DNA of 64,000 nucleotides from the NCBI GenBank assembly GCA_963815325.1, contig CAWFGG010000002.1:709472-773471 (forward strand), given 5' to 3'. The notes under the pieces were generated by a model that did no database searches, had not been told where the DNA came from, and saw only the letters and a program-made list of their open reading frames with translations. This DNA is from an uncultured Gemmatimonadales bacterium (lineage in GTDB: Bacteria; Gemmatimonadota; Gemmatimonadetes; Gemmatimonadales; GWC2-71-9). Shown here one piece after another: positions 4,543 to 53,978 of this stretch (the first letter of the stretch is position 1; each line of letters opens with the position of its first letter). A program made the position numbers and the translations under genes.

Positions 4543-5781
4543 CGTGGCCTGAGCTGCCTCCCCTCGGCCAGGCACGCCGCCAACTCCCGGTAGAGCGGCA
4601 CCATCCCGTCGCGAGATGGTCTACTGCCCAACCTGGCCAGCATGCGACGGGCGAGGCATCCGTCGCGCCCGATGACACCGAGCGGCGCATGCAATTCGGC
4701 CGCAATGGTGCCGTTGGTGCAGTATCGCTCCGCCAGCGCCCGCCAGAGATCCCCCACCGTGCGGCTCGGCGCGCCGCCACATCCCAACAGCATCAGGTAG
4801 TCGCCGTCCGGAACCGGTGCCGTGTCAGCCTGGTGAATGGTCGACTCCAGGAGTGCCCGCAACGCGGCACCCGGATAATCGCGCTGATCGGTCCACCGGC
4901 TGGTCTCCTCCGTGGCGAGCGCCTCGACCACCGCCGACACGAGGGCCGCGATGGCCACGTCGGCCTGGGGACATTCCTGCATGTCGATCACCCGGATCTC
5001 GACCGTGCCGCGGTCGAATCGAGCGATGGCCCCCCGGGCGTTTACCCACTCGTCCCGAAGGATTCCTTCGGGATCGAGCGGTGCCAAGTCGCGGTAGATG
5101 GGTTCGAGGATGCGTTCATTGTACTCCGCTTCCGACTCGACCGGTTCGGGAATGACCGCGCCGGCAATGGACGGGACGCGGGCGGCATTCGACTGATAGA
5201 CCGCGAGCCGGGTATCGAGCGAGCCGCTGACCACGCCGTCCGCGATGGGCGTGCTCGCGGCCAGGGCGGGGATGATCGGCAGCACTCAGACGAATAGCCG
5301 AGTGGAGCCTGGCGAACTCCGCGTCATCGGAGAAAGGCAGGTTGACGTGAACGCTTTGGAGATTGGCCCACCCGTGGCGGGCGCAATCGAACAGGCGATC
5401 GAATGTGGCGTACACCTCGTGGAACTCATGCGGCCAAATACGAAATTCCTGCTGCGGGTCCATCCAGGGGTGGGTGCCGGTTGGCAGGAGGCGCGCGTCC
5501 CACGACTCGAGCCGCTCATTGATGTACGCGACTTCGCCCTGGAATTGATCTGCGAGCCCGACGAGCGTGTCGACCGGGCCGTTGGTCTTGAGCTCGATCA
5601 GATGGAGCGCCAGCTCGTTGGACCAGCCCATGTTGCCGCGCTCGACATCGCACACGATGGTACCGGCCTCGGCTTCGAGCAGCCGGTCGGCAATGGGACG
5701 AACGACGAGAGACTCGGCATCGACGATCATGTACTCGAGCTCGATCCCGATCGCCTCGAACAGGCCGAGACGGGCGGTCAT
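4404..5781 (-). pseudogene. GCS2-type carboxylate-amine ligase (glutamate-cysteine-ligase family 2), frame change near 5286; true 3' end uncertain
   Basis: ATG 5779-5781 overlaps the upstream TGA (ATGA). 'MTARLGLFEAIGIELEYMIVD...FARLHSAIRL' is in one frame and 'VLPIIPALAASTPIADG...VEIRVIDMQECP...' continues in another. The second frame has no stop until 4404, which is 138 nt inside the next gene. The natural end is probably near 4535-4545. Confidence 0.7.
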
Positions 5782-7253
5782 AGCCTGGCCGGAGCCACGC
5801 CTCGTTCGTCGAGTTTGGTCCGGAAGTACTGCATGATGGACAGGTAGAGCTGGTCCCCCAGGATGGTGTCCTCGTACCCGGCGTCGATGGAGGGGTTGTC
5901 GTTGATCTCGATGATCCGGAACTTCCCGTCGATCTCCTTCACGTCCACACCGTAGAGTCCGTCGCCGACCAACGAGGCGGCCTTGACGCCCAACTCGACG
6001 GCGCGGGCCGGCGCGTCCTCCAACGCCACCGCTTCCACCTTGCCGTACCGTCGGCGGCCAGGGCGCCCACTGATGATCTGCCAATGGCCCCGTGCCATGT
6101 GGTATTTGCAGACATAGAGCGCCTCGCGATTCAGCACGCCGATCCGCCAGTCGAACCCGGTCGGCAGCCATTCCTGCACGATGGCCAGGTCGGACTGCTC
6201 GAACACCTGCTTCAAACACTCCACGAATTGGTCGTGCCCCTGCTCGATCTTGATGACCCCCTGCGAGAACGAGCTGTCCGGCAGCTTCACGACACAGGGA
6301 AACCCGATGGCGGCGGCGACCTCCTCGACATTGTCCTCATGAACCACCATGGTCTTCGGACACGGCAGGTCATAGCGGTCGAACAGCTCCGCCTGGTACA
6401 CCTTGTTCGAGCACCGGATGATCGATTCGGGGTCGTCCACGACAATCAGCCCCTCGGTCGCGGCGCGTTGGGCAAATCGAAATGTGTGGTGATCGACCGA
6501 GGTCACTTCGCGAATAAAGAGGGCGTCGAACTCCGCAATGCGACCGTAGTCCTCGGGACCGATGACGCTCGCGGCGATGCCGACGTCCTGCCCCGCTGCA
6601 ATGAACTTCTTGATCGAACGTTCCCAGGACGGGGCGTTTTCATCGAGTGGGTTCCAGAGAATCGCCAGATCGTAGCGGGCCACCTGGGGCTTCGCTCGGC
6701 GCGCGTGCTTCGGCTTGGCGAAGTACCGCCCCGCCTCGGCCTCCACGAAATCCTGGTGGGCTTCGGGGATTTCGCTGGTCGCAATGGCGCGGAGTCCCTG
6801 CAACTTCCAGCGCGCGTCCTCCCAGACAAAGCTGGCGCGGAGAAACGGCGCGGGAAACTGATTGAAGAGCGCACGGCTCAGCCGATCGTAGCGCTTCGCC
6901 AGGTTGCGCCCGAAGTAGATGCTCAGCTCGAATGATTCGGACTTGAGCGGCGCCAGGTTCCGTTGAATCAGATCGTCCAGGTCCTCCCCCACGATGCGCA
7001 GAATGGGCGAGAGCTGGAGCGCCTGGATGGTGGCCACCGAGGGCATGGGTTTGTGCCCCCGAGCGGCAGCGAGCAGCGATACGTAATAGCCCAGCCCTTG
7101 GTAGCCGTACCGGCGGCAGAGGTTGTAGACCGTGGTTCGGCGCAGTTCGGCGTAGCGCGGATCGGTCAGATAGGCGCGAGCCGAGACGACGTCCACGCCG
7201 GGAATCGTGAAGTGCCACCGCTTGGTGTTCTCGATGACGACGAGTGGCTTCAT
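5778..7253 (-). CDS. RimK-like ATP-grasp amidoligase with a roughly 200-aa N-terminal extension
   Basis: Intact 491-aa ORF. ATP-grasp blocks 'GFPCVVKLPDSSFSQGV', 'AIVQEWLPTGFDWRIGVL', 'GVDVKEIDGKFRIIEINDNPSID'. The N-terminal region 'YGYQGLGYYVSLLAAARGH' resembles the RimK-like ATP-grasp N-terminal domain as I recall it. Start ATG overlaps the upstream stop. Confidence 0.85.
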   Translation of the reverse strand: MKPLVVIENTKRWHFTIPGVDVVSARAYLTDPRYAELRRTTVYNLCRRYGYQGLGYYVSLLAAARGHKPMPSVATIQALQLSPILRIVGEDLDDLIQRNLAPLKSESFELSIYFGRNLAKRYDRLSRALFNQFPAPFLRASFVWEDARWKLQGLRAIATSEIPEAHQDFVEAEAGRYFAKPKHARRAKPQVARYDLAILWNPLDENAPSWERSIKKFIAAGQDVGIAASVIGPEDYGRIAEFDALFIREVTSVDHHTFRFAQRAATEGLIVVDDPESIIRCSNKVYQAELFDRYDLPCPKTMVVHEDNVEEVAAAIGFPCVVKLPDSSFSQGVIKIEQGHDQFVECLKQVFEQSDLAIVQEWLPTGFDWRIGVLNREALYVCKYHMARGHWQIISGRPGRRRYGKVEAVALEDAPARAVELGVKAASLVGDGLYGVDVKEIDGKFRIIEINDNPSIDAGYEDTILGDQLYLSIMQYFRTKLDERGVAPARL

Positions 7254-7975
7254 GGTTGGCTGGTGCCAGGCTGGATGACGAGCAGGTTAGCATCGTAGGT
7301 CAGTGCGCCGAGCAGCACCGCGCCCAACAGCCGCTGAATGCCCACCGAATAGTAGTGGGTGCCGAACCGCGGGTTGTCTTGGAAGGGATCTGCCACCAAT
7401 GCCTCGCGACTATCCGGGTCGTACCCGTAGAGCACCACGAAGTGCCCGGCCGGCTCTCCCCGGACATCGTCGTAGTAGAGCTTTTCCTTCCCACGCTCGC
7501 GCGCGCACCCGAACAGGTAGGTGGCGCTGAGCCCGGTTAGGACCGGGTGGCCACGGTTCAAGTATCGTCTTATCAAATCAGGGTTCAGTTCCTTGAACCG
7601 GATCCGGCCGCCCAGTTCGAGGAACCGGAGGTAGGCCTTCGTCGCAAAGCGAAGCTTCGCCGAGCGCTTGACCTTGGCCTGCGACCTGAGCCGTCCCGCC
7701 AAATCGACCTTCCGATCACCAAACCAGCTCGGGTCGAACACGTCGAGGTTGTAGGTGAAGATGGTGGCTTGGTAACCACGCTCGAGCGCGTGGCACGCCA
7801 AGAGGACCGCCAGGGTCCCGCCGCCTTTCAGTGGCTTGATCTCGTCGATGACCTGGCCCAGCGAGATAGTGTCGCCATAGTAGCGATAGACCGCATGCAG
7901 GCAAGTCGGCCCACAGGTCATGTCGTTGGGCTGGGGAAGGATCTCGAGGGTGAGCTTGGAGCTGCGGGGGTCCAC
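7250..7975 (-). CDS. papain-like cysteine peptidase (C39-like)
   Basis: 241-aa ORF with a GTG start. Catalytic-Cys motif 'QPNDMTCGPTCL' and His motif 'GHFVVLYGYD'. Stop overlaps the ATG of the ATP-grasp gene (7250-7253). Confidence 0.75.
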   Translation of the reverse strand: MDPRSSKLTLEILPQPNDMTCGPTCLHAVYRYYGDTISLGQVIDEIKPLKGGGTLAVLLACHALERGYQATIFTYNLDVFDPSWFGDRKVDLAGRLRSQAKVKRSAKLRFATKAYLRFLELGGRIRFKELNPDLIRRYLNRGHPVLTGLSATYLFGCARERGKEKLYYDDVRGEPAGHFVVLYGYDPDSREALVADPFQDNPRFGTHYYSVGIQRLLGAVLLGALTYDANLLVIQPGTSQP

Positions 7976-8113
7976 TGCAATTACGCCTTTCGTGCGGCAG
8001 TACGCGGGCGAGAAGTCTCAATGGTGCCGGGTCCGTCGTCAAGGGCAGGGATGTCTGACGCCTCAGCGGTTGGGCGGCCCGAAGGTTAGGCACGCACGGT
8101 TGCCCATCCCAGG

Positions 8114-8254
8114 CTGTCATCCCGAGCAAAGCGAGGGATCTCCTCAACCGTGCCCCGAACGCGGGCTCGTCCACGTAACCTACCGGCATGAGTCAGTAAG
8201 ATCCCTCGGGCGCTTCGCACCCTCGGGATGACAATCGGAGAAATACCCGACCTC
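8114..8254 (+). mobile_element. MITE-like / REP-like palindromic element, copy B (141 bp)
   Basis: Same termini and orientation as copy A. By-eye alignment shows the left ~50 nt and right ~57 nt nearly identical and the centre divergent. One compensatory a-t to g-c change in the 'gggcac ttc gtgccc' mini-hairpin. Confidence 0.6.
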
Positions 8255-8328
8255 TAAATCTTCCCACCTACCGCAGTCCGCGGCTGAAGCCGCGACTCGG
8301 CTGCTGTCGCTAAAGCGACTCCGCACCC

Positions 8329-8349
8329 CTCCCTACTCCCTACTCCTCC
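8329..8349. repeat. short heptamer tract CTCCCTA CTCCCTA CTCCTCC
   Basis: Read directly. Related to the CTCCTTA tract next to copy A. Confidence 0.6.
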
Positions 8350-8425
8350 CGCCTTCCCGCCTCGCCGTGTGCAAATCTCCCCCCTAGACGCATCTCCCGC
8401 GCGAACAGTCACTCAGGAGGACGAA

Positions 8426-10693
8426 ATGTACCGCCAACTGACGCTCGTTGCCGCCCTGACGGTGGGGGCCGCGACGGCCTTGCCCGCCCAGGGGTGGGTT
8501 GAACTCGAGACCCCCCGGAGGCCCGGCATCGTCATGGGGCCGGTCGTTCGGGTGAGTTCCAACGTCCGGACCACCATCGATGGGCGCGTCGCCCGGGTCG
8601 AGGTGGAGGAGCAGTTCAGAAACACCGGCCCCAGCATCGCGGAGGGGAGTTACCTCTATCCTCTGCCCAAGAACGCCGTGTTCAGCGACTTCTCGCTCTG
8701 GATGGGCGAGCAGGAGATCACCGGTGAGATCATGAACGCCGATGAGGCGCAGAAGATCTACGAGGACATCGTGCGCCGGCTGAAGGACCCTGCCCTGCTT
8801 TCCTTCGAAGGCCACGGTCTCATTCGCGCTCGGGTCTTCCCCATCCAGGCGGGTGAGACGCGCCGGGTGAAGCTCCGCTACACGCAGGTGCTCGACCGGG
8901 CCGGCGATGCCCTCCGGCTGCGTTACAGCATCGGGCCGCGCCATCACGGACCCGAGCACGGCCAGGGTGGAACCGACGCCTCCTTCCGCGACAACTTCAG
9001 CTATCAGGTGACAGTTCCGAGCGCGGATGACATCGGGACACCCTATTCGCCGACCCACCCGATCGAGACCGAACGACGGAACGGCCGGTTGATCGTCACG
9101 TTGAGCCCCAATGCCGTCGGCGACGTAGATCTCTTCATTCCGCTCCGCCGTGGTTTGGTCGGCACCAGCATCCTGACCCACGCCCCTGGTGGTGAAGACG
9201 GCTTCTTCATGCTGCTCCTCGCCCCGCCGCACAACGAGACGGGCCAAGTGGTCCCGCGCGACCTTTCGCTCGTGGTGGACGTCTCCGGCTCCATGTCGGG
9301 GGACAAGTTGGAGCAGGCCAAGCAGGCTATGACGCAGGCCTTGGGGACGCTGCGCCCGGCGGACCGTTTCCAGCTCGTCGCGTTCTCCTCCGGCATCCGC
9401 CATTTCCGTGAGGGGTTCACCCCTGCCACGGCGGCCAACCTTGCTCAAGCCCGCCGATTCGTGGCAAATCTGACCGCGACCGGAGGCACCAATATCGCCG
9501 GCGCGCTCGACGCGGTACTCGGCAGCGCGGTTGCCGAGGACCGGTTGCCCATCATCGTGTTCATGACCGATGGGTTACCCTCGGTTGGCGAGCGGGAACC
9601 CGATCGTATCGCCGAAGCAGCGTCGAATCGGATCGGACGCGCGCGCATCTTCACCGTCGGCGTCGGCCACGACGTCAACACCTATCTGCTCGACCGGCTC
9701 GCGGTCGAGGGGCGCGGAAGCGCCGAATACGTCGCACCAGATGCCGACGTGGAGGTCGCGGTAGGATCGCTGCTGTCCAAGATTCAATTCCCGGCGCTGG
9801 TCAACCTGCGGATCGTCAGCTCGCCGGTCGAGTTCCGCCAGGACTACCCGGCCGAGCTTCCCGACTTGTTCTACGGCGAGGAATTGGTGGTGTTCGGCCG
9901 GTATCATGGCCAGGCCACCGGGACCGTGGTGATCGAAGGCGAGCGGAACGGCCGTCGAGAGCGGTTCACCGCCCGGGCAGCCTTCCCACGAAGCGAGCAT
10001 GACAACGACTACATCCCGCGGCTCTGGGCCGCGCGCAGAATCGGCGACCTGACCCGGACCATCCGGATCGAGGGATCAACCCCCGACCTGATCAACGAAG
10101 TGCGGGACCTGGGCCTTCGGTACGGCATCATCACGGAGTACACGTCCTACCTGGTGCTGGAACCGGGCATGCAACCAGGGGTGGCTCGGGATGACATGCG
10201 CCAGAACGCGCCCATGACCCCAGCGCTGCAAGGCGGGGCGAGACAGGCCCGGGCCCAAACCGGCCGGGAAGCATTCAAACGGGCCGAGGCCAGCTCGGAG
10301 ATGGCGAGTGCCAAGACCCTGGCCGCGGCAGATGCGGTCGCGGAAAGCCGCATGCGGGCCATAGGCGGCCTGTCGGATGAGCGGGAGGGAGATGCGGTGA
10401 ACGCCCGCGAGGCCCAGGTTCGCCGAGTAGCCGGCCGCCTGTTCGTGCGGCACGGTGCGACGTGGACCGACGCACGGCACAGCGATAGCCTCACGGTCAT
10501 CGAGGTCGCGCCATTCAGCGATGCCTACTTTGCCCTGGTCCGGGCACTGCCCGAGATCAGACCTTACCTTTCAACCGACGGCAGCGTGTTGGTCGCCGGC
10601 CGGCAGGTCAGCATCAAGTTCGCAGCAGCCGGGCTCGAATCGATGTCGGAACGCCGCATCAACCAGGTGGTTCGTATGTTTCGAGGTACATGA
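8426..10693 (+). CDS. secreted VIT-domain + von Willebrand factor A-domain protein
   Basis: ATG 8426 is preceded by 'aggagg' 6 nt upstream; the track ORF starts at GTG 8369. Signal peptide 'MYRQLTLVAALTVGAATALPAQG'. VIT-like N-terminus 'ARVEVEEQFRN...YLYPLP...FSLWMGE'. vWA MIDAS motif 'VVDVSGSMSG'. Confidence 0.85.
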   Translation: MYRQLTLVAALTVGAATALPAQGWVELETPRRPGIVMGPVVRVSSNVRTTIDGRVARVEVEEQFRNTGPSIAEGSYLYPLPKNAVFSDFSLWMGEQEITGEIMNADEAQKIYEDIVRRLKDPALLSFEGHGLIRARVFPIQAGETRRVKLRYTQVLDRAGDALRLRYSIGPRHHGPEHGQGGTDASFRDNFSYQVTVPSADDIGTPYSPTHPIETERRNGRLIVTLSPNAVGDVDLFIPLRRGLVGTSILTHAPGGEDGFFMLLLAPPHNETGQVVPRDLSLVVDVSGSMSGDKLEQAKQAMTQALGTLRPADRFQLVAFSSGIRHFREGFTPATAANLAQARRFVANLTATGGTNIAGALDAVLGSAVAEDRLPIIVFMTDGLPSVGEREPDRIAEAASNRIGRARIFTVGVGHDVNTYLLDRLAVEGRGSAEYVAPDADVEVAVGSLLSKIQFPALVNLRIVSSPVEFRQDYPAELPDLFYGEELVVFGRYHGQATGTVVIEGERNGRRERFTARAAFPRSEHDNDYIPRLWAARRIGDLTRTIRIEGSTPDLINEVRDLGLRYGIITEYTSYLVLEPGMQPGVARDDMRQNAPMTPALQGGARQARAQTGREAFKRAEASSEMASAKTLAAADAVAESRMRAIGGLSDEREGDAVNAREAQVRRVAGRLFVRHGATWTDARHSDSLTVIEVAPFSDAYFALVRALPEIRPYLSTDGSVLVAGRQVSIKFAAAGLESMSERRINQVVRMFRGT

Positions 10694-11190
10694 GTCACGA
10701 CATCGGTCAGTTGTACCAAGAGTACCACGGGTCCCTCGTCCGGATGCTCTACCGCCGGACGGGGGATCCGGACCGGGCGGAAGACCTGGCACAGGAGGTC
10801 TTCGCCCGGGCGGTGCAGGCTCCGCCAAGGAATCCACGACCGTGGCTGTTTGCAGTCGCGCTCAACCTGGTGCGGGAGGACGGACGCAAGGCCGTCCGGC
10901 AGGGCCGGCGGCTGGAACTCTACCGGGCGGAGACGACGCGCTCGGCGCCGGCGCCGGATACGGAAATGGAACGGGACGAGCAAATCGCCGACGTGCGTGC
11001 CGCGCTCGACCAGCTTACCGAGCGCGATCGGGAGGCACTCTTGCTCAAGGCGGAAGGGTTCAACTACGAAGAGATCGCCGCGACGCTGGGGCTGGCAAAG
11101 GGAGCCGTGGGAACGACACTCGCACGGGCCCGCCGCCGATTGGTCGAGGCGTATCACGGTGAAGGACGGAAAGACAATGCCGCACCCTGA
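10690..11190 (+). CDS. ECF (sigma-70 family, group 4) RNA polymerase sigma factor
   Basis: 166 aa. Region 2 'DRAEDLAQEVFARA' and region 4 HTH 'NYEEIAATLGLAKGAVGTTLARARRRL'. ATG overlaps the VIT-vWA stop (ATGA at 10690-10693). Confidence 0.85.
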   Translation: MSHDIGQLYQEYHGSLVRMLYRRTGDPDRAEDLAQEVFARAVQAPPRNPRPWLFAVALNLVREDGRKAVRQGRRLELYRAETTRSAPAPDTEMERDEQIADVRAALDQLTERDREALLLKAEGFNYEEIAATLGLAKGAVGTTLARARRRLVEAYHGEGRKDNAAP

Positions 11191-12436
11191 AGAAGGAATG
11201 TTCCACGCGTTGCTCGACGGAGAGTTGACTCCCGACGAGGTGCGCATCATCGAAGCCCACGTGGCGTCGTGCGCCGCGTGCGCCGGACGGCTCGAGGACG
11301 TGCGCGCCATTTTCGACGAGTCCACGGGCCTGGTGGAACGGCTGGAACTACCAGAACGAAAAGCCTCGGGCTCCTCCGCTCCACCACCCGACCTGGTCCG
11401 CGCCAAGCGAGCCCGGACCATCCCGAGTCAACGGCTCCGCACCTTGGCATGGGCGGCCACGGTGGTCATCGCCGCCGGCGCAGGATACCTGGCGGGCGAT
11501 TGGCGTCACCGCGTGCCCGGTCAAACACCGGCCTCCGCGATGAATGAGAGGGGCCAAGTTCCGGCCGTTTCCACTGAAGAGGCGATGCGCGACGAGGCAG
11601 CGAAAGCGGTAGTCCAGGCGGAACTCCCGAGGGCTAGCGAGGCGCGGCCTGCCGAACAAGAGCAACAGCGGGCCACGGGAAAGGACGACGACGCTCCGGT
11701 CCCCACCACCCCGGCGCCGGTCGATGCCGTGGTGGGCGGCGCGGCCCAAGGTGGAGCGGCGCGAGGCAACGTGAGCGGCAAGCCCGGACCCGAGTCTCCC
11801 GCGGCGCGCCGTGACCGTCTCGCCCAGGTCGCGAGGGCCGAGGAGCGCGATGCGGGGCGCGCCGCCGATGCGCCGGCGGTCCAAGCACCCGGAGCGGATG
11901 CCGCGGCATCCCGGGCCGCTGTCTCGGGGCTGGTCGAGGACGCCCGGCGCGAGGCCGACTTTGCGAAGGCCGCCGATGCGGCGCCGGCCGAAGGATTCAG
12001 GGCCCAGGTGACTCGACCCCGGCCCGTGACCCTGGAGGAGGCGGTCGATGCCTTGAACGGAGCGATCCGCCTCGTTGATGGTGCCTCGCTCACCCGCGTG
12101 GAGACGAGCGATCCGCCGGCCGTGCCCTGGGCCGAAGTCGAGGGTCCGCTGGTCAGGGTGGTCTATCGACTCGAAGGCGCCGAGGTCGTGCTCAGTCAGG
12201 TTCGGGTGAATCCGGGACGCGAGGGAGTCGCGGAACGAGCCGCCGCCAAGCGCGCGCTGGACGCCGTTGGGGATGTTGGCACGGTCCCACACCTCGCTCC
12301 CGGCGATACCCTCGTCGTAGCAGAACCGGGCGGCGGGTACCGGTTGTGGTGGCTGGACGGTTCCCGCCGGATCCTGTCACTGTCGGGGCCACTCGGCCAA
12401 GATGCCCTGAAACGGATCGTCGATCGGATCCGTTAG
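11177..12436 (+). CDS. zf-HC2 anti-sigma factor, single-pass membrane protein with a conserved C-terminal periplasmic domain (paralog 1)
   Basis: ATG 11177 lies inside the long track ORF 10850-12436 and overlaps the sigma gene end by 14 nt. 'HVASCAACAGRL' matches the H-x3-C-x2-C motif. TM segment 'LAWAATVVIAAGAGYLAG'. Ala/Arg-rich linker, then a C-terminal domain shared with the next two genes. Confidence 0.8.
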   Translation: MPHPEEGMFHALLDGELTPDEVRIIEAHVASCAACAGRLEDVRAIFDESTGLVERLELPERKASGSSAPPPDLVRAKRARTIPSQRLRTLAWAATVVIAAGAGYLAGDWRHRVPGQTPASAMNERGQVPAVSTEEAMRDEAAKAVVQAELPRASEARPAEQEQQRATGKDDDAPVPTTPAPVDAVVGGAAQGGAARGNVSGKPGPESPAARRDRLAQVARAEERDAGRAADAPAVQAPGADAAASRAAVSGLVEDARREADFAKAADAAPAEGFRAQVTRPRPVTLEEAVDALNGAIRLVDGASLTRVETSDPPAVPWAEVEGPLVRVVYRLEGAEVVLSQVRVNPGREGVAERAAAKRALDAVGDVGTVPHLAPGDTLVVAEPGGGYRLWWLDGSRRILSLSGPLGQDALKRIVDRIR

Positions 12437-12518
12437 GCCTGTCTCGGTCCTCGCCCGGCCCCGGTCCCGCGTGGTATCTTTGTAGGACCCCTTTGATTCA
12501 GGACCAGACGCCCGGACG

Positions 12519-13454
12519 ATGGACCACGTCACCGAAGAGACCCTCAAGAGCCTCCTGGAGAACCGGATGAGCCGGGTCGCCCAGGCACAGGTGCGTCATC
12601 ACATCAGCACCTGCTTCCGCTGCGAGGAAAAGGTGCGGCAGTGGCGGGCATCCATCGACGCACTGAGTGACGCTTCGGAGAAGGCCAGGACGCCCTACCC
12701 CAAAACCGAGGGCTCCGAGCCGACCATCCTCGTTCCAGCGAAGCCTGTCATTCTATCGAAGCATTCGCGATGGGCTGTCCGCTCGGTGTTGGCTGTCGCG
12801 GCGGTGCTCGTCGTGGCACTCGCCGTCGAGACCATCCGGCAAGACCGCCAACAAGAGGGTGGTGAGGGAGCCCAGGCAGGATCGCTCATCCAACGAAGCC
12901 AGGCGGCTCTTCAAGCCGGTATGGACAGCACGCTCGCCGTCCGGGGCTCTGCCCTCCCGGTACCTCCGACCGAGAGCGGCACATCGCAGGAGCCCACCGC
13001 TACGCCACCCGCCCCGGTTCGATCGGACAGCGCAAGTCCCGCCGCCGTGCCGAGACCGGTGCCGTTGGAGCCGGCGGCACCAACGGTCACGGGGCCCGGG
13101 TTCACCATGCTGACCGTGCGTGAGGCCATCGAGCGAACCGGCGGGCCGATCCTGCTCGTGCGGGGCCTCCTGCCGGACCACCTCGAGGTTGCCCCGGCAA
13201 GCGCAGTTCCGGGTGCCCTGCCCGGAAGCGAAGTGATCCGGGTGGTGTACCGGGAGCCGGGCGGCCGGATCTTGCTTCTGGACCAGCAGAAGATCCCCGA
13301 GGCCTACCGGTCCGGGCTCGCGGCCGACACCCTCATCGATTCGGACCCGGGTGGAAGGTCCATCGCCATCTGGGTGGGCGGCGATACCCGCGTCACCCTC
13401 TCGGGCCGGATAGACCCCGAAACCCTCATGGTCTTCGTGCGCCGGGTCGACTAG
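12519..13454 (+). CDS. zf-HC2 anti-sigma-like membrane protein (paralog 2)
   Basis: 311 aa. 'HISTCFRCEEKV', TM segment 'AVRSVLAVAAVLVVALAV', Pro-rich linker, C-terminal block 'EVIRVVYREPGGRILLLDQQ...TLSGRIDPETL'. Confidence 0.8.
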   Translation: MDHVTEETLKSLLENRMSRVAQAQVRHHISTCFRCEEKVRQWRASIDALSDASEKARTPYPKTEGSEPTILVPAKPVILSKHSRWAVRSVLAVAAVLVVALAVETIRQDRQQEGGEGAQAGSLIQRSQAALQAGMDSTLAVRGSALPVPPTESGTSQEPTATPPAPVRSDSASPAAVPRPVPLEPAAPTVTGPGFTMLTVREAIERTGGPILLVRGLLPDHLEVAPASAVPGALPGSEVIRVVYREPGGRILLLDQQKIPEAYRSGLAADTLIDSDPGGRSIAIWVGGDTRVTLSGRIDPETLMVFVRRVD

Positions 13455-13490
13455 CCGGGAGAAGAGGACCCGGTCCGATCGCCCGTCATT

Positions 13491-13524
13491 GGGGCCGTGA
13501 GCTAGATCACGGCCCCTTTTTCTT
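13491..13524 (+). terminator. canonical Rho-independent terminator
   Basis: Perfect 10-bp stem 'ggggccgtga'/'tcacggcccc', 6-nt loop, then 'tttttctt'. Confidence 0.8.
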
Positions 13525-13543
13525 GCCAGCGACATCATAAGGT

Positions 13544-14446
13544 ATGAAGCACCCCCCCGACGACGCCCAGGCCCACCTCGACCACCTGGAACTGGCTGCG
13601 GCCGTCGCGGGAAGGCTGGATCAGGTGAGCACACAGCGTCTGGTGCGGCATCTCCAGCAATGTGAAGCCTGTGCCACCGAGGCATACGCATGGGGTATCC
13701 ACCTCGATGACGAGGGCAACTTGAAGACGAGCCAGCCGTCCTCGATGGCGGCCCCTCATCGGATCCTCTTCCCGGTGGGTCATGCCGGCTACGACATGCC
13801 GACCCGGAGGCCGAAGCGCTCTCCGGCCGTGTGGTTGGCGGGGGTCTTGGTCATTACGGCGCTGGGGGCGGCGCTGTTGCTGCTGCCGCCGGCCGACGCG
13901 TCGCGGCCCTTGGTCGCCCACGATTCATCCGCCCCCGCCGCCGCGGGCTCCACGAATCTGCTCGCCGGCATGTCGCCGCCCATCGTCGCCGAAGCACCCT
14001 CCCTCTCCTCAGACCAAGAGTTCCCGGCGTCAGTGGCGCAAGCGATGGTGACGGCAGAAGTCGTGACCATGCCGCAGTTCCGGGTCATCACCCCGGAAGA
14101 GGCCAAGGCCAGGCTCGCCGGGTCACTCCGGACCATTCCCGCCCTGAGTCTCACGCGGGTCGAACTCGGGCCCGGCGCCGCCGTGCCACTCGCGCTGCCC
14201 GACATCGAGGTGATTCGTCTGGTCTATCAGTCTCCGACCGGGGAACTGTTACTGCTCGATGAACAGCGGCTGCCCGTGAACGCGGACCTCGGCGACGTGG
14301 GCATCGCCCCGGGCGACACGCTCATCTACAGCGACACGCGCGGCATCACCGTCGCGACGTGGCTCGCCAGCCGCACACTCAGACTGTCGCTCGCGGGGCA
14401 AATGGATCATGAGGCCATCCGCCAAATCATGACCGGCATCCGGTAG
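13544..14446 (+). CDS. zf-HC2 anti-sigma-like membrane protein (paralog 3)
   Basis: 300 aa. 'HLQQCEACATEA', TM segment 'AVWLAGVLVITALGAALLLL', C-terminal block 'EVIRLVYQSPTGELLLLDEQ...LSLAGQMDHEAI'. Confidence 0.8.
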   Translation: MKHPPDDAQAHLDHLELAAAVAGRLDQVSTQRLVRHLQQCEACATEAYAWGIHLDDEGNLKTSQPSSMAAPHRILFPVGHAGYDMPTRRPKRSPAVWLAGVLVITALGAALLLLPPADASRPLVAHDSSAPAAAGSTNLLAGMSPPIVAEAPSLSSDQEFPASVAQAMVTAEVVTMPQFRVITPEEAKARLAGSLRTIPALSLTRVELGPGAAVPLALPDIEVIRLVYQSPTGELLLLDEQRLPVNADLGDVGIAPGDTLIYSDTRGITVATWLASRTLRLSLAGQMDHEAIRQIMTGIR

Positions 14447-14464
14447 CCCACACTCGCTCCGCCC

Positions 14465-15001
14465 TCAGCCCTCTGGCGTTCGATCCCGAGGGATGGTGGT
14501 GATGCCCATCCCAACAACAAAGAATCCGTAGCCTGGATCGGCACCCGCAAGGAAACGGCGTTCGACATCGAATCGGAGCCCGATCGACGGTGCGATTTGG
14601 ATGATCGTTCCTGCTCCCGCATAGACATTGAAGGCACCACCACCGCCACCTTGCGCGACCGCGGCCAGCACCGACGCGCCTCCGCGGGCGAACACGGTCA
14701 CCCGAGACAGCCGGGCGGGCACGACCAATCCCACGTCGGTCAAGAACACCAGAGCCCCGTCGCTGAAGCCGGCCGGAAAGAATGAGAATGCGAAGTCCGC
14801 CCCGATGCCTTCCTTCGCGAGGTTGGTCGCTCGTAGGGTGAGGGTCGATGTGGCGAACTCGTCGAACCAGCCCACCCGCTGAACCGAACCACCAATCGCC
14901 CAACCGGCCGGCATTCGGGTGGGGGAGGGTCCCTGGGCCGCGAGCGTGCCCGACAAGGTCCAGGGAAGAAACAGCGTGAGCATGAAGGTGGCCTGCCGCA
15001 T
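14465..15001 (-). CDS. small secreted, Gly-rich, probable outer-membrane beta-barrel protein
   Basis: Start chosen at 'MRQATFMLTLFLPWTLSGTLAAQ' (signal peptide) inside track ORF 14465-15115. Alternating hydrophobic pattern. Function unknown. Confidence 0.55.
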   Translation of the reverse strand: MRQATFMLTLFLPWTLSGTLAAQGPSPTRMPAGWAIGGSVQRVGWFDEFATSTLTLRATNLAKEGIGADFAFSFFPAGFSDGALVFLTDVGLVVPARLSRVTVFARGGASVLAAVAQGGGGGAFNVYAGAGTIIQIAPSIGLRFDVERRFLAGADPGYGFFVVGMGITTIPRDRTPEG

Positions 15002-15041
15002 GGGATCGTCCTGTGTCAGGGTCACCGACACGTTGCACCGG

Positions 15042-15062
15042 ACCCGTGACCTACCCGTGACC
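15042..15062 (+). promoter_or_regulatory. two direct repeats 'acccgtgacc' with 11-bp periodicity, plus an inverted 'ggtcac' at 15020-15025, in the divergent intergenic region
   Basis: 15042-15051 and 15053-15062 are identical. They sit where a -35 would be for a possible -10 'tatctt' (15067-15072), 30 nt upstream of the BTAD regulator ATG. Confidence 0.35.
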
Positions 15063-15101
15063 CACCTATCTTTGAGGGATGCCAGGCCAGACGAGCCCTG
15101 A

Positions 15102-53161: not shown

Positions 53162-53391
53162 GTTGCCGGAAATTGTCATGAAACCTATAAAGACAGCCCC
53201 AATGCCATCTGAAGATATCTTCATTCTTTGAGCCTGAGCCCTCCTCACGGTTGCCGCTTCGAGCGTTCCGGAACGGCGCCACAGGGGCCTGGGGCATGGA
53301 CATTGCGCCGCTCCTGGCCAGCCTGCGTGCAAGAATGAGAGGCCCCGGCATCTCCCCCTCGAGCACGCTCGACCCGAACCCGGGAGCCCTC

Positions 53392-53973
53392 ATGCTTCGA
53401 GTCCACTACATCCTGGGCGCCGCCTACCTGGCCCTCTGCATCATGTTGCTCCGGGGCTCGGCCTCTCGACCGGAGTTCCTGCCCCATCCGACGGGTACGA
53501 CCCAAATCGTCCCCGCGACCGGCGAGGCCGGCGCATGGTTCGCGAGCATGAAGCCCTATTGCAACGCGGTCGAAGTGGAGACCCGGCAACGGGCCACGCC
53601 CCCACCCGGGACGCTGGAAGGATTGGGCTACAGCGCCGGCTGCTACGCGTTGGGCGGGAAGATCGACCTCGCGCGCGAAACGATCCGACGCGCTCCCGCC
53701 GATCAGCAGTACAAGGCAGCCGGTATTGTGTTCGCTCTGGCGCATCCGGTGGCAGACGCCGGTGACGACAAGTCGGCCGGACCGATCATGGAGCTGGTCC
53801 TGGAGTTCTGGCCCAACCACTACCAGGCACGCTATCACGCCGGGATGTCGTCCTACATCCTCGGCGACGCCGGACGGGCCCGCCTGCATCTCACGCAGTT
53901 CGTCGAGGAGTATCGGCAGAACGACGGCTGGCGCCGGAATGCAGAGGCCGTGCTGCAACGCCTCGGCAACTGA
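53392..53973 (+). CDS. membrane-anchored hypothetical protein
   Basis: ATG 53392 'MLRVHYILGAAYLALCIMLL' (TM) inside track ORF 53251-53973. Stop lies 5 nt before the kinase ATG. Confidence 0.5.
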   Translation: MLRVHYILGAAYLALCIMLLRGSASRPEFLPHPTGTTQIVPATGEAGAWFASMKPYCNAVEVETRQRATPPPGTLEGLGYSAGCYALGGKIDLARETIRRAPADQQYKAAGIVFALAHPVADAGDDKSAGPIMELVLEFWPNHYQARYHAGMSSYILGDAGRARLHLTQFVEEYRQNDGWRRNAEAVLQRLGN

Positions 53974-53978
53974 CGGTT

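What the first reader, a model, noticed from the sequence alone, without database searches (positions are those of the whole stretch)
8426..11190. Secreted VIT-vWA protein translationally coupled to an ECF sigma factor
The 755-aa VIT+vWA protein has a signal peptide and the MIDAS motif 'DVSGSMSG'. It ends in an ATGA overlap with the ECF sigma gene (10690-10693). The sigma gene in turn overlaps its anti-sigma gene by 14 nt.

ECF operons usually start with the sigma gene. Here a large extracytoplasmic adhesion/ligand-binding-type protein is the first cistron. That suggests it is an output or the sensory partner of the sigma/anti-sigma switch, for example a vWA-mediated metal- or protein-binding signal relayed to the periplasmic domains downstream. 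I am not aware of a characterised ECF system with this architecture.
Basis: partly seen in the sequence, partly recalled or inferred. Interest (0 to 1): 0.65.

Follow-up and report, generated by a model that had tools for sequence, protein, structure and literature searches.

The report
ITIH-like vWA protein heading ECF operon
In a group of soil bacteria (Gemmatimonadales), a secreted protein resembling human inter-alpha-trypsin-inhibitor heavy chains is the first gene of a probably self-activating stress sigma-factor operon, a real and conserved arrangement that is a lineage-specific variant of something already noted in other bacteria.

Summary
A 755-aa VIT+vWA protein (8426-10693) overlaps an ECF sigma gene by ATGA. 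The sigma gene overlaps a zinc-finger anti-sigma gene by 14 nt.

The window comes from a Gemmatimonadales MAG. The three-gene cassette recurs in many relatives with different flanking genes.

A conserved bipartite motif, TGTGCAA-N15-GCATCTCC (8368-8397), lies 25-45 nt upstream of the vWA start in every locus with upstream DNA. The same motif sits directly before the sigma gene wherever the vWA gene is absent or separated from it. I therefore read it as the sigma factor's own promoter, which makes the vWA protein a sigma-dependent first cistron, that is, an output.

The proposed sensor role is untested and somewhat weakened:
- Only 10 of 17 sigma-anchored loci in this sigma clade carry the vWA gene.
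- The anti-sigma has its own conserved periplasmic domain with weak MucB/RseB-like fold similarity.
- vWA homologues in other phyla are rarely sigma-linked.

The architecture has precedent. The ECF classification describes ECF255 with a secreted vWA protein at position -1, and ECF226/ECF289 with vWA fused to the anti-sigma.

Verdict: a real, conserved, uncharacterised module and a new variant of a known kind. Interest is moderate.

The parts
8368..8397 (+). Candidate autoregulatory ECF promoter. The -35-like element is TGTGCAA (8368-8374), followed by a 15-nt gap, then the -10-like element GCATCTCC (8390-8397). It ends 28 nt before the vWA start codon.
   Evidence: It is conserved at fixed spacing upstream of the vWA gene in every Gemmatimonadales locus with upstream DNA, while the surrounding intergenic DNA is not conserved. 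The same motif lies directly before the sigma gene where the vWA gene is absent or separated from it. The exact pattern is expected 0.01 times per window. No sigma-70-type promoter is found in 7900-15200. This is an in-silico inference; no transcription start site has been mapped.
8415..8420 (+). Shine-Dalgarno sequence AGGAGG, 5 nt upstream of ATG 8426
   Evidence: Read directly from the sequence.
8426..10693 (+). Secreted ITIH-like VIT+vWA protein, 755 aa. Layout: signal-peptide-like N-terminus (res 1-23); VIT (res 44-152; nt 8555-8881); vWA (res 279-434; nt 9260-9727) with the MIDAS DVSGS at nt 9278-9292; ITIH-like region to about res 604; variable Ala/Gln-rich linker (res ~585-660); conserved C-terminal domain (res ~665-755; nt 10418-10690).
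   Evidence: Pfam and NCBIfam hits. PDB sequence hits to ITIH4 (E 2.9e-40, res 46-604) and ITIH1. The AF2 model matches ITIH1 6fpy at E 1.2e-34. MIDAS residues are invariant in 25 orthologues. There is no LPXTG or hydrophobic C-terminal anchor. The C-terminal domain has no Pfam hit.
10690..11190 (+). ECF (group 4) sigma factor, 166 aa. Its start overlaps the vWA stop codon (ATGA). An SD-like GAGG is formed by the conserved final Arg-Gly codons of the vWA gene.
   Evidence: Sigma70_r2 and Sigma70_r4_2 hits. TIGR02937 passes its cut-off; every specific equivalog or subfamily model among the 25 best NCBIfam hits shown (of 80) is below cut-off. The closest solved relatives are M. tuberculosis SigE and SigL. 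Orthologues are 72-99% identical. Junctions are shown.
11177..12436 (+). Anti-sigma factor, 419 aa. Layout: N-terminal zinc-finger anti-sigma domain (HVASCAAC); one moderately hydrophobic segment (res 89-107); Ala/Pro/acidic low-complexity linker (res ~111-273); conserved periplasmic C-terminal domain, here called CTD (res 274-419; nt 11996-12433).
   Evidence: zf-HC2 at 3.9e-08. Hydropathy is 1.49 over 19 aa. The CTD model has pLDDT 76 and pTM 0.73. Its best PDB matches are MucB 6in9 (E 7.7e-3, TM 0.50) and RseB 3m4w. A CTD HMM hits every clade-A anti-sigma and none in clade B.
12519..13454 (+). Second anti-sigma-like paralogue (orf4), 311 aa. It has HxxxCxxC (HISTCFRC), a clear TM segment (res 85-103) and the same CTD. 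It is probably the last gene of the operon.
   Evidence: Translation; weak NCBIfam anti-sigma hit; TM score 2.39; CTD HMM E 2e-51. No terminator is predicted between 12436 and 12519.
13491..13526 (+). Intrinsic-terminator-like hairpin with a T-run, the likely end of the operon
   Evidence: 10-bp stem with 8 G-C pairs, followed by TTTTTCTTGC.
13544..14446 (+). Third anti-sigma-like paralogue (orf5), 300 aa. It has HLQQCEAC, a TM segment (res 96-114) and the same CTD. It lies downstream of the terminator.
   Evidence: Translation; weak zf-HC2 hit; TM score 2.55; CTD HMM E 1e-58.
53327..53354 (+). Second exact copy of the promoter motif (GTGCAA-N15-GCATCTCC), 38 nt upstream of ORF 53392-53973. 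That ORF is 193 aa with a hydrophobic N-terminus and no Pfam hit. It is followed by a Ser/Thr kinase gene at 53979-55841. This is a candidate second regulon member.
   Evidence: Pattern search found 2 matches against 0.01 expected. Sequence. Pfam Pkinase 1.6e-44 for the downstream ORF. Hydropathy. Conservation in other genomes was not tested.

Best explanation
This is a positively autoregulated ECF sigma/anti-sigma operon of a Gemmatimonadales-specific sigma clade. A secreted ITIH-like VIT+vWA protein has become the promoter-proximal cistron.

**Proposed mechanism**
1. In the resting state, the membrane anti-sigma holds the sigma factor through its cytoplasmic zinc-finger domain.
2. An envelope or redox signal inactivates the anti-sigma. 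The signal is sensed either by the anti-sigma's own periplasmic domain, which is possibly MucB/RseB-like, or by its Zn-Cys site.
3. The freed sigma factor directs RNA polymerase to the promoter TGTGCAA-N15-GCATCTCC at 8368-8397.
4. One transcript carries the vWA protein, the sigma factor, the anti-sigma and the second anti-sigma paralogue, ending at the terminator at 13491-13526.
5. Stop/start overlaps (ATGA, then 14 nt) couple translation, so every induction event produces the vWA protein together with more sigma and anti-sigma.
6. The vWA protein is exported and uses its complete MIDAS site to bind an acidic ligand in the periplasm or on the cell surface.

The vWA protein is therefore at least the main co-expressed output of the switch.

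**Shown from sequence:** gene content, the overlaps, the domains, conservation of the cassette, and conservation and placement of the motif.

**Inferred:** that the motif is the sigma factor's own promoter, that the genes are co-transcribed, that the vWA protein is exported, and the nature of the signal.
For: - **Cassette conservation:** all 9 vWA-anchored Gemmatimonadales genome loci with downstream DNA carry the cassette. Sigma-anchored look-ups with unrelated flanking genes carry it too.
- **Co-divergence:** vWA and sigma identities fall together: 93/96, 65/72, 62/69, 49/65 and 49/56 %.
- **Motif upstream of vWA:** it sits at fixed spacing in every locus with upstream DNA.
- **Motif in the vWA-sigma gap:** in L006 and L010, where a 78-nt gap separates the two genes, a second motif copy sits just before the sigma gene.
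- **Motif in vWA-less clade-A loci:** it lies upstream of the sigma gene.
- **Motif in the sister clade B:** TGTGCAAG-N14/15-CGTC(C/T)T lies 50-110 nt before the sigma gene. The -35 element is kept, and the -10 element varies with the sigma clade, including the classic ECF 'CGTC'.
- **Background rate:** a relaxed pattern gives 18 hits in 1.24 Mb of unrelated loci.
- **No alternative promoter:** no sigma-70-type promoter is found in the region, and a terminator follows orf4.
- **Translational coupling:** ATGA overlaps with an SD-like GAGG occur at at least 11 of 19 junctions.
- **Intact binding site:** the MIDAS is invariant and the protein is ITIH-like.
Against: - No transcription start site or expression data exist. 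The promoter assignment rests on comparative placement only.
- In sigma-anchored samples, 7 of 17 distinct clade-A loci lack the vWA gene. The vWA protein is therefore dispensable for the switch in some lineages.
- An internal or weak promoter for the sigma gene inside the vWA gene cannot be excluded.
- Export is inferred from a short hydrophobic N-terminus only.
- The MucB/RseB resemblance of the anti-sigma domain is weak (E 7.7e-3, TM 0.50). It comes from a 4-sequence alignment model.
Confidence: 0.68

Rival explanations
1. The vWA protein is a regulatory partner, either a co-sensor or a feedback modulator, and not merely an output. After export, it binds the periplasmic part of the anti-sigma (the acidic linker or the C-terminal domain) or an envelope or metal ligand through its MIDAS site. 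This binding gates proteolysis of the anti-sigma. The role would be comparable to RseB/MucB on RseA/MucA or CnrX on CnrY. This reading is compatible with the vWA protein also being sigma-dependent.
For: - The gene order is tight and long-lived, and translation is coupled. This suggests fixed stoichiometry with the sigma and anti-sigma.
- In other ECF groups a vWA+DUF3520 module is fused to the anti-sigma (ECF226, ECF289) or encoded at -1 (ECF255). This is a domain-fusion argument for a link between vWA and anti-sigma.
- A Spirochaete MAG (L029) independently links ECF sigma > zf-HC2 anti-sigma > vWA > VIT-vWA.
- The anti-sigma linker is rich in Asp and Glu (26 of 163 residues), which are potential MIDAS ligands.
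Against: - vWA-less clade-A loci keep the same anti-sigma C-terminal domain and the same promoter.
- The anti-sigma periplasmic region evolves much faster (about 30% identity, 315-419 aa) than the vWA protein (62-65%).
- None of the 150 best representatives of the VIT-vWA family has an N-terminal extension, so no fusion to a sigma or anti-sigma domain is seen there. The family has 5751 clusters at E <= 1e-30.
- 18 of 19 distant homologues that share the whole fold, C-terminal domain included (L011-L029), have no ECF sigma gene within 8 kb.
- No interaction test was possible.
Confidence: 0.22
2. The conserved upstream motif is the operator of a different transcription factor, or some other non-promoter element. 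The sigma gene would then be transcribed from an unrecognised promoter, and the vWA protein would not be sigma-dependent.
For: There are no experimental data. The -35-like TGTGCAA lacks the canonical GGAAC. The motif could in principle bind a dimeric regulator.
Against: - The motif follows the sigma gene, not the vWA gene, across clade A without vWA, clade B and the L006/L010 gap copies.
- It is bipartite and not palindromic, with a fixed 16-nt spacer between GTGCAA and C[A/G]TC.
- It has the expected distance and orientation relative to the start codons.
- Its -10 half changes with the sigma clade (CATCT versus CGTCC).
- Promoter motifs with TGCAA-type -35 and CGTC or GCATCT -10 elements are reported for other ECF groups.
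Confidence: 0.06
3. The adjacency has no functional meaning. A common periplasmic vWA gene simply sits upstream of an ECF operon and is retained by vertical inheritance.
For: The VIT-vWA family is very large and mostly not sigma-linked. Several clade-A loci lack it.
Against: - Flanking genes differ completely between loci while the cassette stays intact.
- ATGA overlaps are maintained across about 50% protein divergence.
- The only conserved intergenic element lies upstream of the vWA gene, not between the vWA and sigma genes.
Confidence: 0.04

Closest known systems
ECF255 (Bacteroidetes) in ECF classification 2.0 (Casas-Pastor et al. 2021; Suppl. Text S2 and Table S2 of bioRxiv 10.1101/2019.12.11.873521)
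   Same: A secreted or soluble vWA-domain protein is encoded at position -1, immediately upstream of the ECF sigma gene. A single-pass anti-sigma is at +1. The predicted target promoter has the same -10 element, GCATCT. As far as the text says, it is described only bioinformatically.
   Different: - The phylum differs.
- The partner there is vWA+DUF3520+CarboxypepD_reg. Here it is VIT+vWA (ITIH-like) with an unrelated C-terminal domain and no DUF3520.
- The anti-sigma there carries TonB_C. Here it carries a zinc finger plus a domain that is possibly MucB/RseB-like.
- The -35 element is TATGGAT there and TGTGCAA here.
- Group membership of this sigma factor could not be tested.
ECF226 and ECF289 (anti-sigma factors fused to vWA + DUF3520); ECF35 subgroups with DUF3520 proteins at -1/-2
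   Same: A vWA-type extracytoplasmic module is associated with an ECF sigma/anti-sigma pair.
   Different: In those groups the vWA domain is part of the anti-sigma polypeptide (ECF226, ECF289), or the partner is DUF3520 only (ECF35). Here the vWA protein is a separate, secreted, VIT-containing protein. None of the 150 best representatives has an N-terminal extension that could hold a fused domain.
RpoE-RseA-RseB / AlgU-MucA-MucB
   Same: An autoregulated ECF operon encodes a periplasmic accessory protein that modulates the anti-sigma. The periplasmic domain of the anti-sigma here gives MucB and RseB as its best structural matches.
   Different: - In E. coli and Pseudomonas, RseB/MucB is a separate protein encoded downstream. 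Here the MucB-like fold, if real, is fused to the anti-sigma.
- The extra protein here is an unrelated vWA protein encoded upstream.
- The similarity is weak, with no sequence-level match.
CnrYXH (ECF291, Cupriavidus metallidurans)
   Same: The sigma gene is not the first gene of the operon. A periplasmic sensor protein, CnrX, is encoded upstream and relays a metal signal to the anti-sigma. This rests on established knowledge; CnrH is also among the PDB hits of this sigma factor.
   Different: CnrX is a small helical metal sensor and CnrY is a short anti-sigma also encoded upstream. Here the anti-sigma is downstream, and there is no homology between the accessory proteins.
Eukaryotic inter-alpha-trypsin inhibitor heavy chains (ITIH1, ITIH4), and bacterial VIT-vWA surface proteins such as TIGR03788 'marine proteobacterial sortase target'
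   Same: They share the VIT + vWA(MIDAS) + following region architecture. Sequence homology covers residues 46-604 (E 2.9e-40), and there is a fold match to 6fpy. TIGR03788 is the best NCBIfam hit.
   Different: - The TIGR03788 score of 307 is below the cut-off of 552, and there is no LPXTG or other C-terminal sorting signal.
- The family-specific C-terminal domain (res ~665-755) is absent from ITIH.
- None of those proteins is known to be linked to a sigma factor.

Membership tests
ECF (group 4) sigma-70 factors | Only the sigma-2 and sigma-4 domains are present, with no sigma-3 or sigma-1.1 | tested here: met
   The 166-aa protein hits Sigma70_r2 (res 8-68) and Sigma70_r4_2 (res 101-151) only. 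TIGR02937 scores 76.7 against a cut-off of 42.9.
ECF (group 4) sigma-70 factors | A cognate anti-sigma is encoded next to the sigma gene and co-transcribed with it | tested here: met
   A zf-HC2 protein overlaps the sigma stop codon by 14 nt. This is conserved in all related loci. Co-transcription is inferred, not measured.
ECF (group 4) sigma-70 factors | An autoregulatory bipartite promoter lies upstream of its own operon | tested here: met
   A conserved TGTGCAA-N15-GC[A/G]TCT motif tracks the sigma gene across clades. This is in silico only.
A named ECF group of classification 2.0 (for example ECF255) | The sigma factor scores above the group HMM threshold | not testable with these tools
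   The ECF Hub HMMs are not available. Signature peptides of this sigma factor are absent from the held supplement. The Gemmatimonadetes ECFs that are grouped there fall in ECF12, 19, 22, 25, 41, 42, 56 and others, and none of those whose entries were retrieved (ECF19, ECF22, ECF25, ECF248, ECF272, ECF273) is described with vWA at -1.
ECF255 | The -1 protein has vWA + DUF3520 + CarboxypepD_reg, and the anti-sigma has TonB_C | tested here: not met
   The -1 protein here is VIT + vWA with no DUF3520 or CarboxypepD_reg hit. The anti-sigma has zf-HC2 only.
ECF255 | Promoter TATGGAT-Xn-GCATCT | tested here: inconclusive
   The -10 element GCATCT is identical, but the -35 element differs (TGTGCAA).
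ZAS-type (class I) anti-sigma factors | An N-terminal anti-sigma domain with the HxxxCxxC zinc motif | tested here: met
   HVASCAAC in the anti-sigma, HISTCFRC in orf4 and HLQQCEAC in orf5. zf-HC2 scores 3.9e-08 for the anti-sigma and 1.3e-3 (below cut-off) for orf5, with no Pfam hit for orf4.
ZAS-type (class I) anti-sigma factors | A single transmembrane helix separates the cytoplasmic and extracytoplasmic parts | tested here: inconclusive
   The anti-sigma has one segment at res 89-107 with mean hydropathy 1.49, just under the 1.6 threshold. orf4 and orf5 have clear segments (2.39 and 2.55). No dedicated TM predictor was available.
VIT-vWA / ITIH-like proteins | A VIT domain followed by a vWA domain with a complete MIDAS (DxSxS...T...D) | tested here: met
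   Pfam VIT 6e-23 and VWA_3 1.5e-18. D285, S287, S289, T355 and D382 are invariant. ITIH4 E 2.9e-40, and a fold match to ITIH1 at E 1e-34.
TIGR03788 marine proteobacterial sortase target protein | A score above the equivalog cut-off and a C-terminal LPXTG sorting signal | tested here: not met
   306.9 bits against a cut-off of 551.65. The C-terminus '...RINQVVRMFRGT' has no LPXTG or hydrophobic tail.
MucB/RseB family (for the anti-sigma C-terminal domain) | Sequence membership (Pfam MucB_RseB) or a clear fold match | tested here: inconclusive

The most novel reading that the evidence does not exclude
The ITIH-like VIT-vWA protein is a new kind of periplasmic co-sensor for an ECF switch. Through its MIDAS site it binds the acidic linker or the MucB/RseB-like domain of one or more of the three paralogous anti-sigma proteins, or an envelope ligand. 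This controls anti-sigma proteolysis. Because the protein is itself the first product of the induced operon, it also sets a feedback loop. That would make vWA/MIDAS-mediated signalling a general input mode for ECF systems, linking this cassette with ECF255, ECF226 and ECF289.
Probability: 0.2. Interest if true: 0.6.

Novelty: new variant of a known kind. Interest (0 to 1): 0.4.

Why it matters
- **An uncharted sigma clade.** Most ECF sigma factors of Gemmatimonadota appear to be ungrouped (only 14 ECF groups are listed for the phylum's 531 ECFs), and I know of none that has been studied. This analysis defines one clade with its likely promoter (TGTGCAA-N15-GC[A/G]TCT), its anti-sigma architecture and its main co-expressed product.
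- **An orthogonal part for synthetic biology.** The result gives a ready-made sigma/promoter/anti-sigma set that can be tested as an orthogonal switch.
- **A tractable test of vWA function in ECF systems.** vWA proteins recur next to, or fused with, ECF anti-sigma factors (ECF255, ECF226, ECF289), and I found no study of their function. This cassette offers a way to ask whether they act as effectors or as sensors.
- **A regulatory handle on bacterial ITIH-like proteins.** The family is very large (more than 5000 clusters at 50% identity) and I know of no assigned function. Here one branch is placed in a defined regulatory context.

Tried and rejected
- **Sigma-70 promoter scan** of 7900-15200: 0 sites. 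It was uninformative for an ECF promoter.
- **Rfam scans** of the whole window, and of the long leaders of vWA-less loci: no hits.
- **Third homologue search**, using the anti-sigma C-terminal domain: only one hit because of the word index. The structure model therefore rests on 4 sequences.
- **Fusion search.** The full-library search gave 150 best representatives that are all colinear with the query, with no N-terminal sigma or anti-sigma fusion.
- **ECF group assignment.** The PMC version holds no supplements. The bioRxiv supplement has no sequence with this sigma factor's signature peptides.
- **Literature searches** for VIT or vWA with sigma factors found no characterised case.
- **Sortase or exosortase surface protein (TIGR03788, PEP-CTERM types):** rejected. 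The scores are below cut-off and there is no sorting signal.
- **GTG 8369 as the start codon** (774-aa ORF): rejected. It overlaps the promoter motif, whereas ATG 8426 has an AGGAGG and matches the conserved N-terminus of orthologues.
- **The vWA gene as a universal partner of this sigma clade:** rejected after the sigma-anchored scan.

Full report
**1. Observation**

- The vWA gene starts at ATG 8426, 5 nt after an AGGAGG at 8415-8420. It ends at 10693 and encodes 755 aa.
- Pfam finds VIT (res 44-152, E 6e-23) and vWA (res 279-434; VWA_3 1.5e-18, VWA 4.5e-15).
- The MIDAS string DVSGSMSG is present.
- The ECF sigma ORF is 10690-11190 (166 aa, Sigma70_r2 + Sigma70_r4_2). It starts inside the ATGA at 10690-10693.
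- The zf-HC2 anti-sigma is 11177-12436 and overlaps the sigma gene by 14 nt.
- Two further anti-sigma-like ORFs follow, at 12519-13454 and 13544-14446. A terminator-like hairpin at 13491-13516 separates them.
- The signal peptide is plausible: a hydrophobic segment at res 7-19, with no other hydrophobic segment standing out in the protein. It was not tested with a dedicated predictor.

**2. Source organism and conservation of the cassette**

The nearest proteins come from Gemmatimonadales MAGs.
- In a scan of one genome per species, 10 Gemmatimonadota loci encode a 62-93% identical VIT-vWA protein.
- All 9 of those with downstream DNA have the sigma gene (69-96% identical) and a zf-HC2 anti-sigma directly downstream.
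- Look-ups anchored on two sigma orthologues returned 8 places, representing 3 distinct loci. All have vWA > sigma > anti-sigma with 4-nt and 14-17-nt overlaps.
- Their flanking genes are unrelated: RCC1/EamA/MutS in one case and ArsC/ABC-F/OMP in the other. In the window the flanks are C39 peptidase/RimK-like and BTAD-TPR.

The three-gene cassette is therefore the conserved unit. ATGA overlaps occur at at least 11 of 19 junctions. The conserved last two residues of the vWA protein (Arg-Gly) are encoded by codons that form an SD-like GAGG or GGGG 4-8 nt before the sigma ATG.

**3. A conserved ECF-type promoter**

The upstream intergenic regions of the vWA gene are otherwise unalignable. They share one element, (G)TGTGCAA-N15-GCATCTCC(C)G, ending 25-45 nt before the vWA start. 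In the window this is 8368-8397. Four observations identify it as the sigma factor's own promoter and not a vWA-specific element.
- **(i) Gap copies.** In L006 and L010 a 78-nt gap separates the vWA and sigma genes. A second copy (GTGCAT-N15-GGCATCTC) lies in that gap, directly before the sigma gene.
- **(ii) vWA-less loci.** In clade-A loci without a vWA gene, the motif lies 90-360 nt upstream of the sigma gene.
- **(iii) The sister clade.** In the sister sigma clade (51-56% identity, never vWA-linked), TGTGCAAG-N14/15-CGTC(C/T)T lies 50-110 nt before the sigma gene. The -35 half is kept. The -10 half changes with the sigma clade and takes the classic ECF 'CGTC' form.
- **(iv) Geometry.** The motif is bipartite, non-palindromic and of fixed spacing: 16 nt between GTGCAA and C[A/G]TC.

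The exact pattern is expected 0.01 times per window. A relaxed pattern gives 18 hits in 1.24 Mb of unrelated loci. No sigma-70-type promoter is found in the region.

The window holds one more exact copy at 53327-53354. It lies 38 nt upstream of a 193-aa ORF with a hydrophobic N-terminus, followed by a Ser/Thr kinase gene. This is a candidate second target.

**4. Limits of the association**

I ran a sigma-anchored metagenome scan and built a neighbour-joining tree.
- vWA linkage is spread over the whole of clade A (56-100% sigma identity), including its deepest branches L057, L007, L056 and L053.
- vWA identity falls together with sigma identity, from 93/96 down to 49/56 %. This argues for long co-inheritance.
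- However, 7 of the 14 metagenome loci in this clade lack the vWA gene: L045, L046, L049, L050, L051, L052 and L054.
- Together with the sigma-anchored look-ups, 10 of 17 distinct sigma-anchored loci have it.
- Sigma relatives below about 50% identity never have it.
- Distant VIT-vWA homologues (33-38% identity) come from Planctomycetes, Pyrinomonadaceae, Verrucomicrobiota, Ignavibacteria and others. They share the whole fold including the C-terminal domain. In 18 of 19 such loci (L011-L029) there is no ECF sigma gene within 8 kb.
- The exception is a Spirochaete MAG (L029) with sigma > zf-HC2 anti-sigma > vWA > VIT-vWA on one strand.
- The family is very large, with 5751 clusters at 50% identity at E <= 1e-30. 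The 150 best representatives are colinear with the query and show no N-terminal extension that could hold a sigma or anti-sigma domain.

**5. The proteins**

*The vWA protein* is a bacterial relative of inter-alpha-trypsin-inhibitor heavy chains.
- ITIH4 matches at E 2.9e-40 over res 46-604, and ITIH1 at 2.7e-28.
- The AF2 model has pLDDT 66. It is high in the vWA domain and in the C-terminal domain. It matches ITIH1 6fpy at E 1.2e-34 over 593 columns.
- All five MIDAS residues are invariant.
- After a variable Ala/Gln-rich linker, a conserved domain of about 90 aa (res 665-755) has no Pfam match.
- There is no sortase or exosortase signal, and TIGR03788 scores below its cut-off.

*The anti-sigma* has the following layout:
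- an HxxxCxxC anti-sigma domain;
- one moderately hydrophobic segment;
- a 160-aa Ala/Pro/acidic linker;
- a 146-aa C-terminal domain that is shared with orf4 and orf5.

An HMM of that C-terminal domain hits the anti-sigma of every clade-A locus, whether vWA-linked or not, and none in clade B. Its AF2 model (pLDDT 76, pTM 0.73, from 4 sequences) has MucB (6in9, E 7.7e-3, TM 0.50) and RseB (3m4w) as its best PDB matches. This is suggestive but weak. There is no sequence-level match.

**6. Mechanism**

Best supported (confidence about 0.68):
1. This is an autoregulated ECF operon.
2. The sigma factor, once released from the zinc-finger anti-sigma, initiates at 8368-8397.
3. It transcribes vWA-sigma-anti-sigma-orf4 up to the terminator.
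4. Translation is coupled through the overlaps.
5. The secreted ITIH-like protein is therefore made in step with every induction.

On this reading the vWA protein is at least the principal output. Its MIDAS site points to metal-dependent binding of an acidic ligand in the envelope.

This is not excluded (about 0.2).
- In favour: the vWA-anti-sigma fusions of other ECF groups and the independent linkage in L029.
- Against: the vWA-less loci that keep the anti-sigma domain, the fast evolution of the anti-sigma periplasmic region, and the fact that the anti-sigma has a candidate sensor domain of its own.

**7. Comparison with what is known**

The main text of the ECF classification 2.0 mentions ECF289 anti-sigma factors fused to DUF3520 + vWA. 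Its supplement adds the following:
- ECF226 has the same fusion as ECF289.
- ECF35 subgroups have DUF3520 proteins at -1/-2.
- ECF255 (Bacteroidetes) is the closest case. [quoted passage not shown] Its promoter is TATGGAT-Xn-GCATCT.

The present cassette works like ECF255 in layout and shares the -10 hexamer, but it fails ECF255's defining features:
- the accessory protein has no DUF3520 or CarboxypepD_reg;
- the anti-sigma has no TonB_C;
- the -35 element differs;
- the phylum differs.

Group membership by HMM could not be tested. According to the same supplement, Gemmatimonadetes ECFs are listed under only 14 groups, which suggests most are ungrouped, and none of the listed groups whose entries I retrieved has vWA at -1. 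CnrYXH and RseB/MucB are functional analogies only. No experimentally characterised vWA-ECF system was found in the literature searches.

**8. Verdict**

'Output' rests on comparative promoter evidence. 'Sensor' is untested.
- This is a new variant of a known kind: an ECF module with a vWA accessory protein, here an ITIH-like VIT-vWA protein in Gemmatimonadales, combined with an anti-sigma domain not described in Pfam.
- Interest is moderate (0.4). It is useful for ECF biology and as a handle on a large uncharacterised protein family, but it would not surprise a specialist.

Noticed in passing
window 53327-55841 (+): A second exact copy of the promoter motif (GTGCAA-N15-GCATCTCC; 0.01 expected per window) lies 38 nt upstream of a 193-aa ORF with a hydrophobic N-terminus and no Pfam hit. 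A 620-aa Ser/Thr protein kinase gene follows. This may be a second member of the sigma regulon.
   Followed up: partly
window 11177-14446 (+): Three paralogous zinc-finger anti-sigma-like membrane proteins share one periplasmic C-terminal domain, but only one sigma gene is nearby. The third lies after the operon terminator. The close relatives L001 and L002 also show all three (L002's third copy is cut by the contig end), L003 has two, and other lineages have one. These could be decoys or multiple inputs.
   Followed up: partly
L046 2881-3245; L049 550-771; L051 1038-1259; L045 74-305: vWA-less loci of the same sigma clade have a 200-360-nt leader between the promoter motif and the sigma gene. 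The leader contains a partly conserved element (CCCGATAGGATGCG.ATCACAGTCA..CTGTCT). Rfam gave no hit. It could be a regulatory 5' UTR or a remnant of a lost gene.
   Followed up: partly
L029 4910-10076 (Spirochaetes MAG): An independent linkage in another phylum: ECF sigma > zf-HC2 anti-sigma > 372-aa vWA protein > VIT-vWA homologue (33% identical), all on one strand. In L012 (Ignavibacteriaceae), a 374-aa vWA protein also precedes the VIT-vWA gene, without a sigma gene.
   Followed up: partly
window 8330-8365; L001 about 7770-7830; L003 about 1800-1850; L089 about 1650-1700; L055 about 1560-1750: Short tandem or CT-rich repeats lie just upstream of the promoter motif in several lineages (CTCCCTACTCC, TATTGGC, CAATCCCT, CTATCGG, GCACGAC...). 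Their sequences differ between lineages.
   Followed up: no
window 5116-7975 (-) and 15102-17834 (+): The cassette is flanked by what looks like a peptide-modification gene set. On one side are a C39-like peptidase, a RimK-like ATP-grasp with an RLAN domain, and a GCS2 ligase. On the other is a BTAD-TPR protein with a weak hit to TIGR04510 'peptide modification system cyclase'. These flanks are present in L001 and L002 (the BTAD-TPR side only in L001; L002 ends before it) and absent from more distant cassette loci.
   Followed up: no
L058-L067, about 400 nt upstream of the sigma gene: The vWA-less sister sigma clade is always preceded, on the same strand, by a conserved Cys-rich gene (...CCRDLQIEIMCT...SPYLCKVER...). 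The gene ends just before the TGTGCAAG-N-CGTCCT motif. It was not identified.
   Followed up: no
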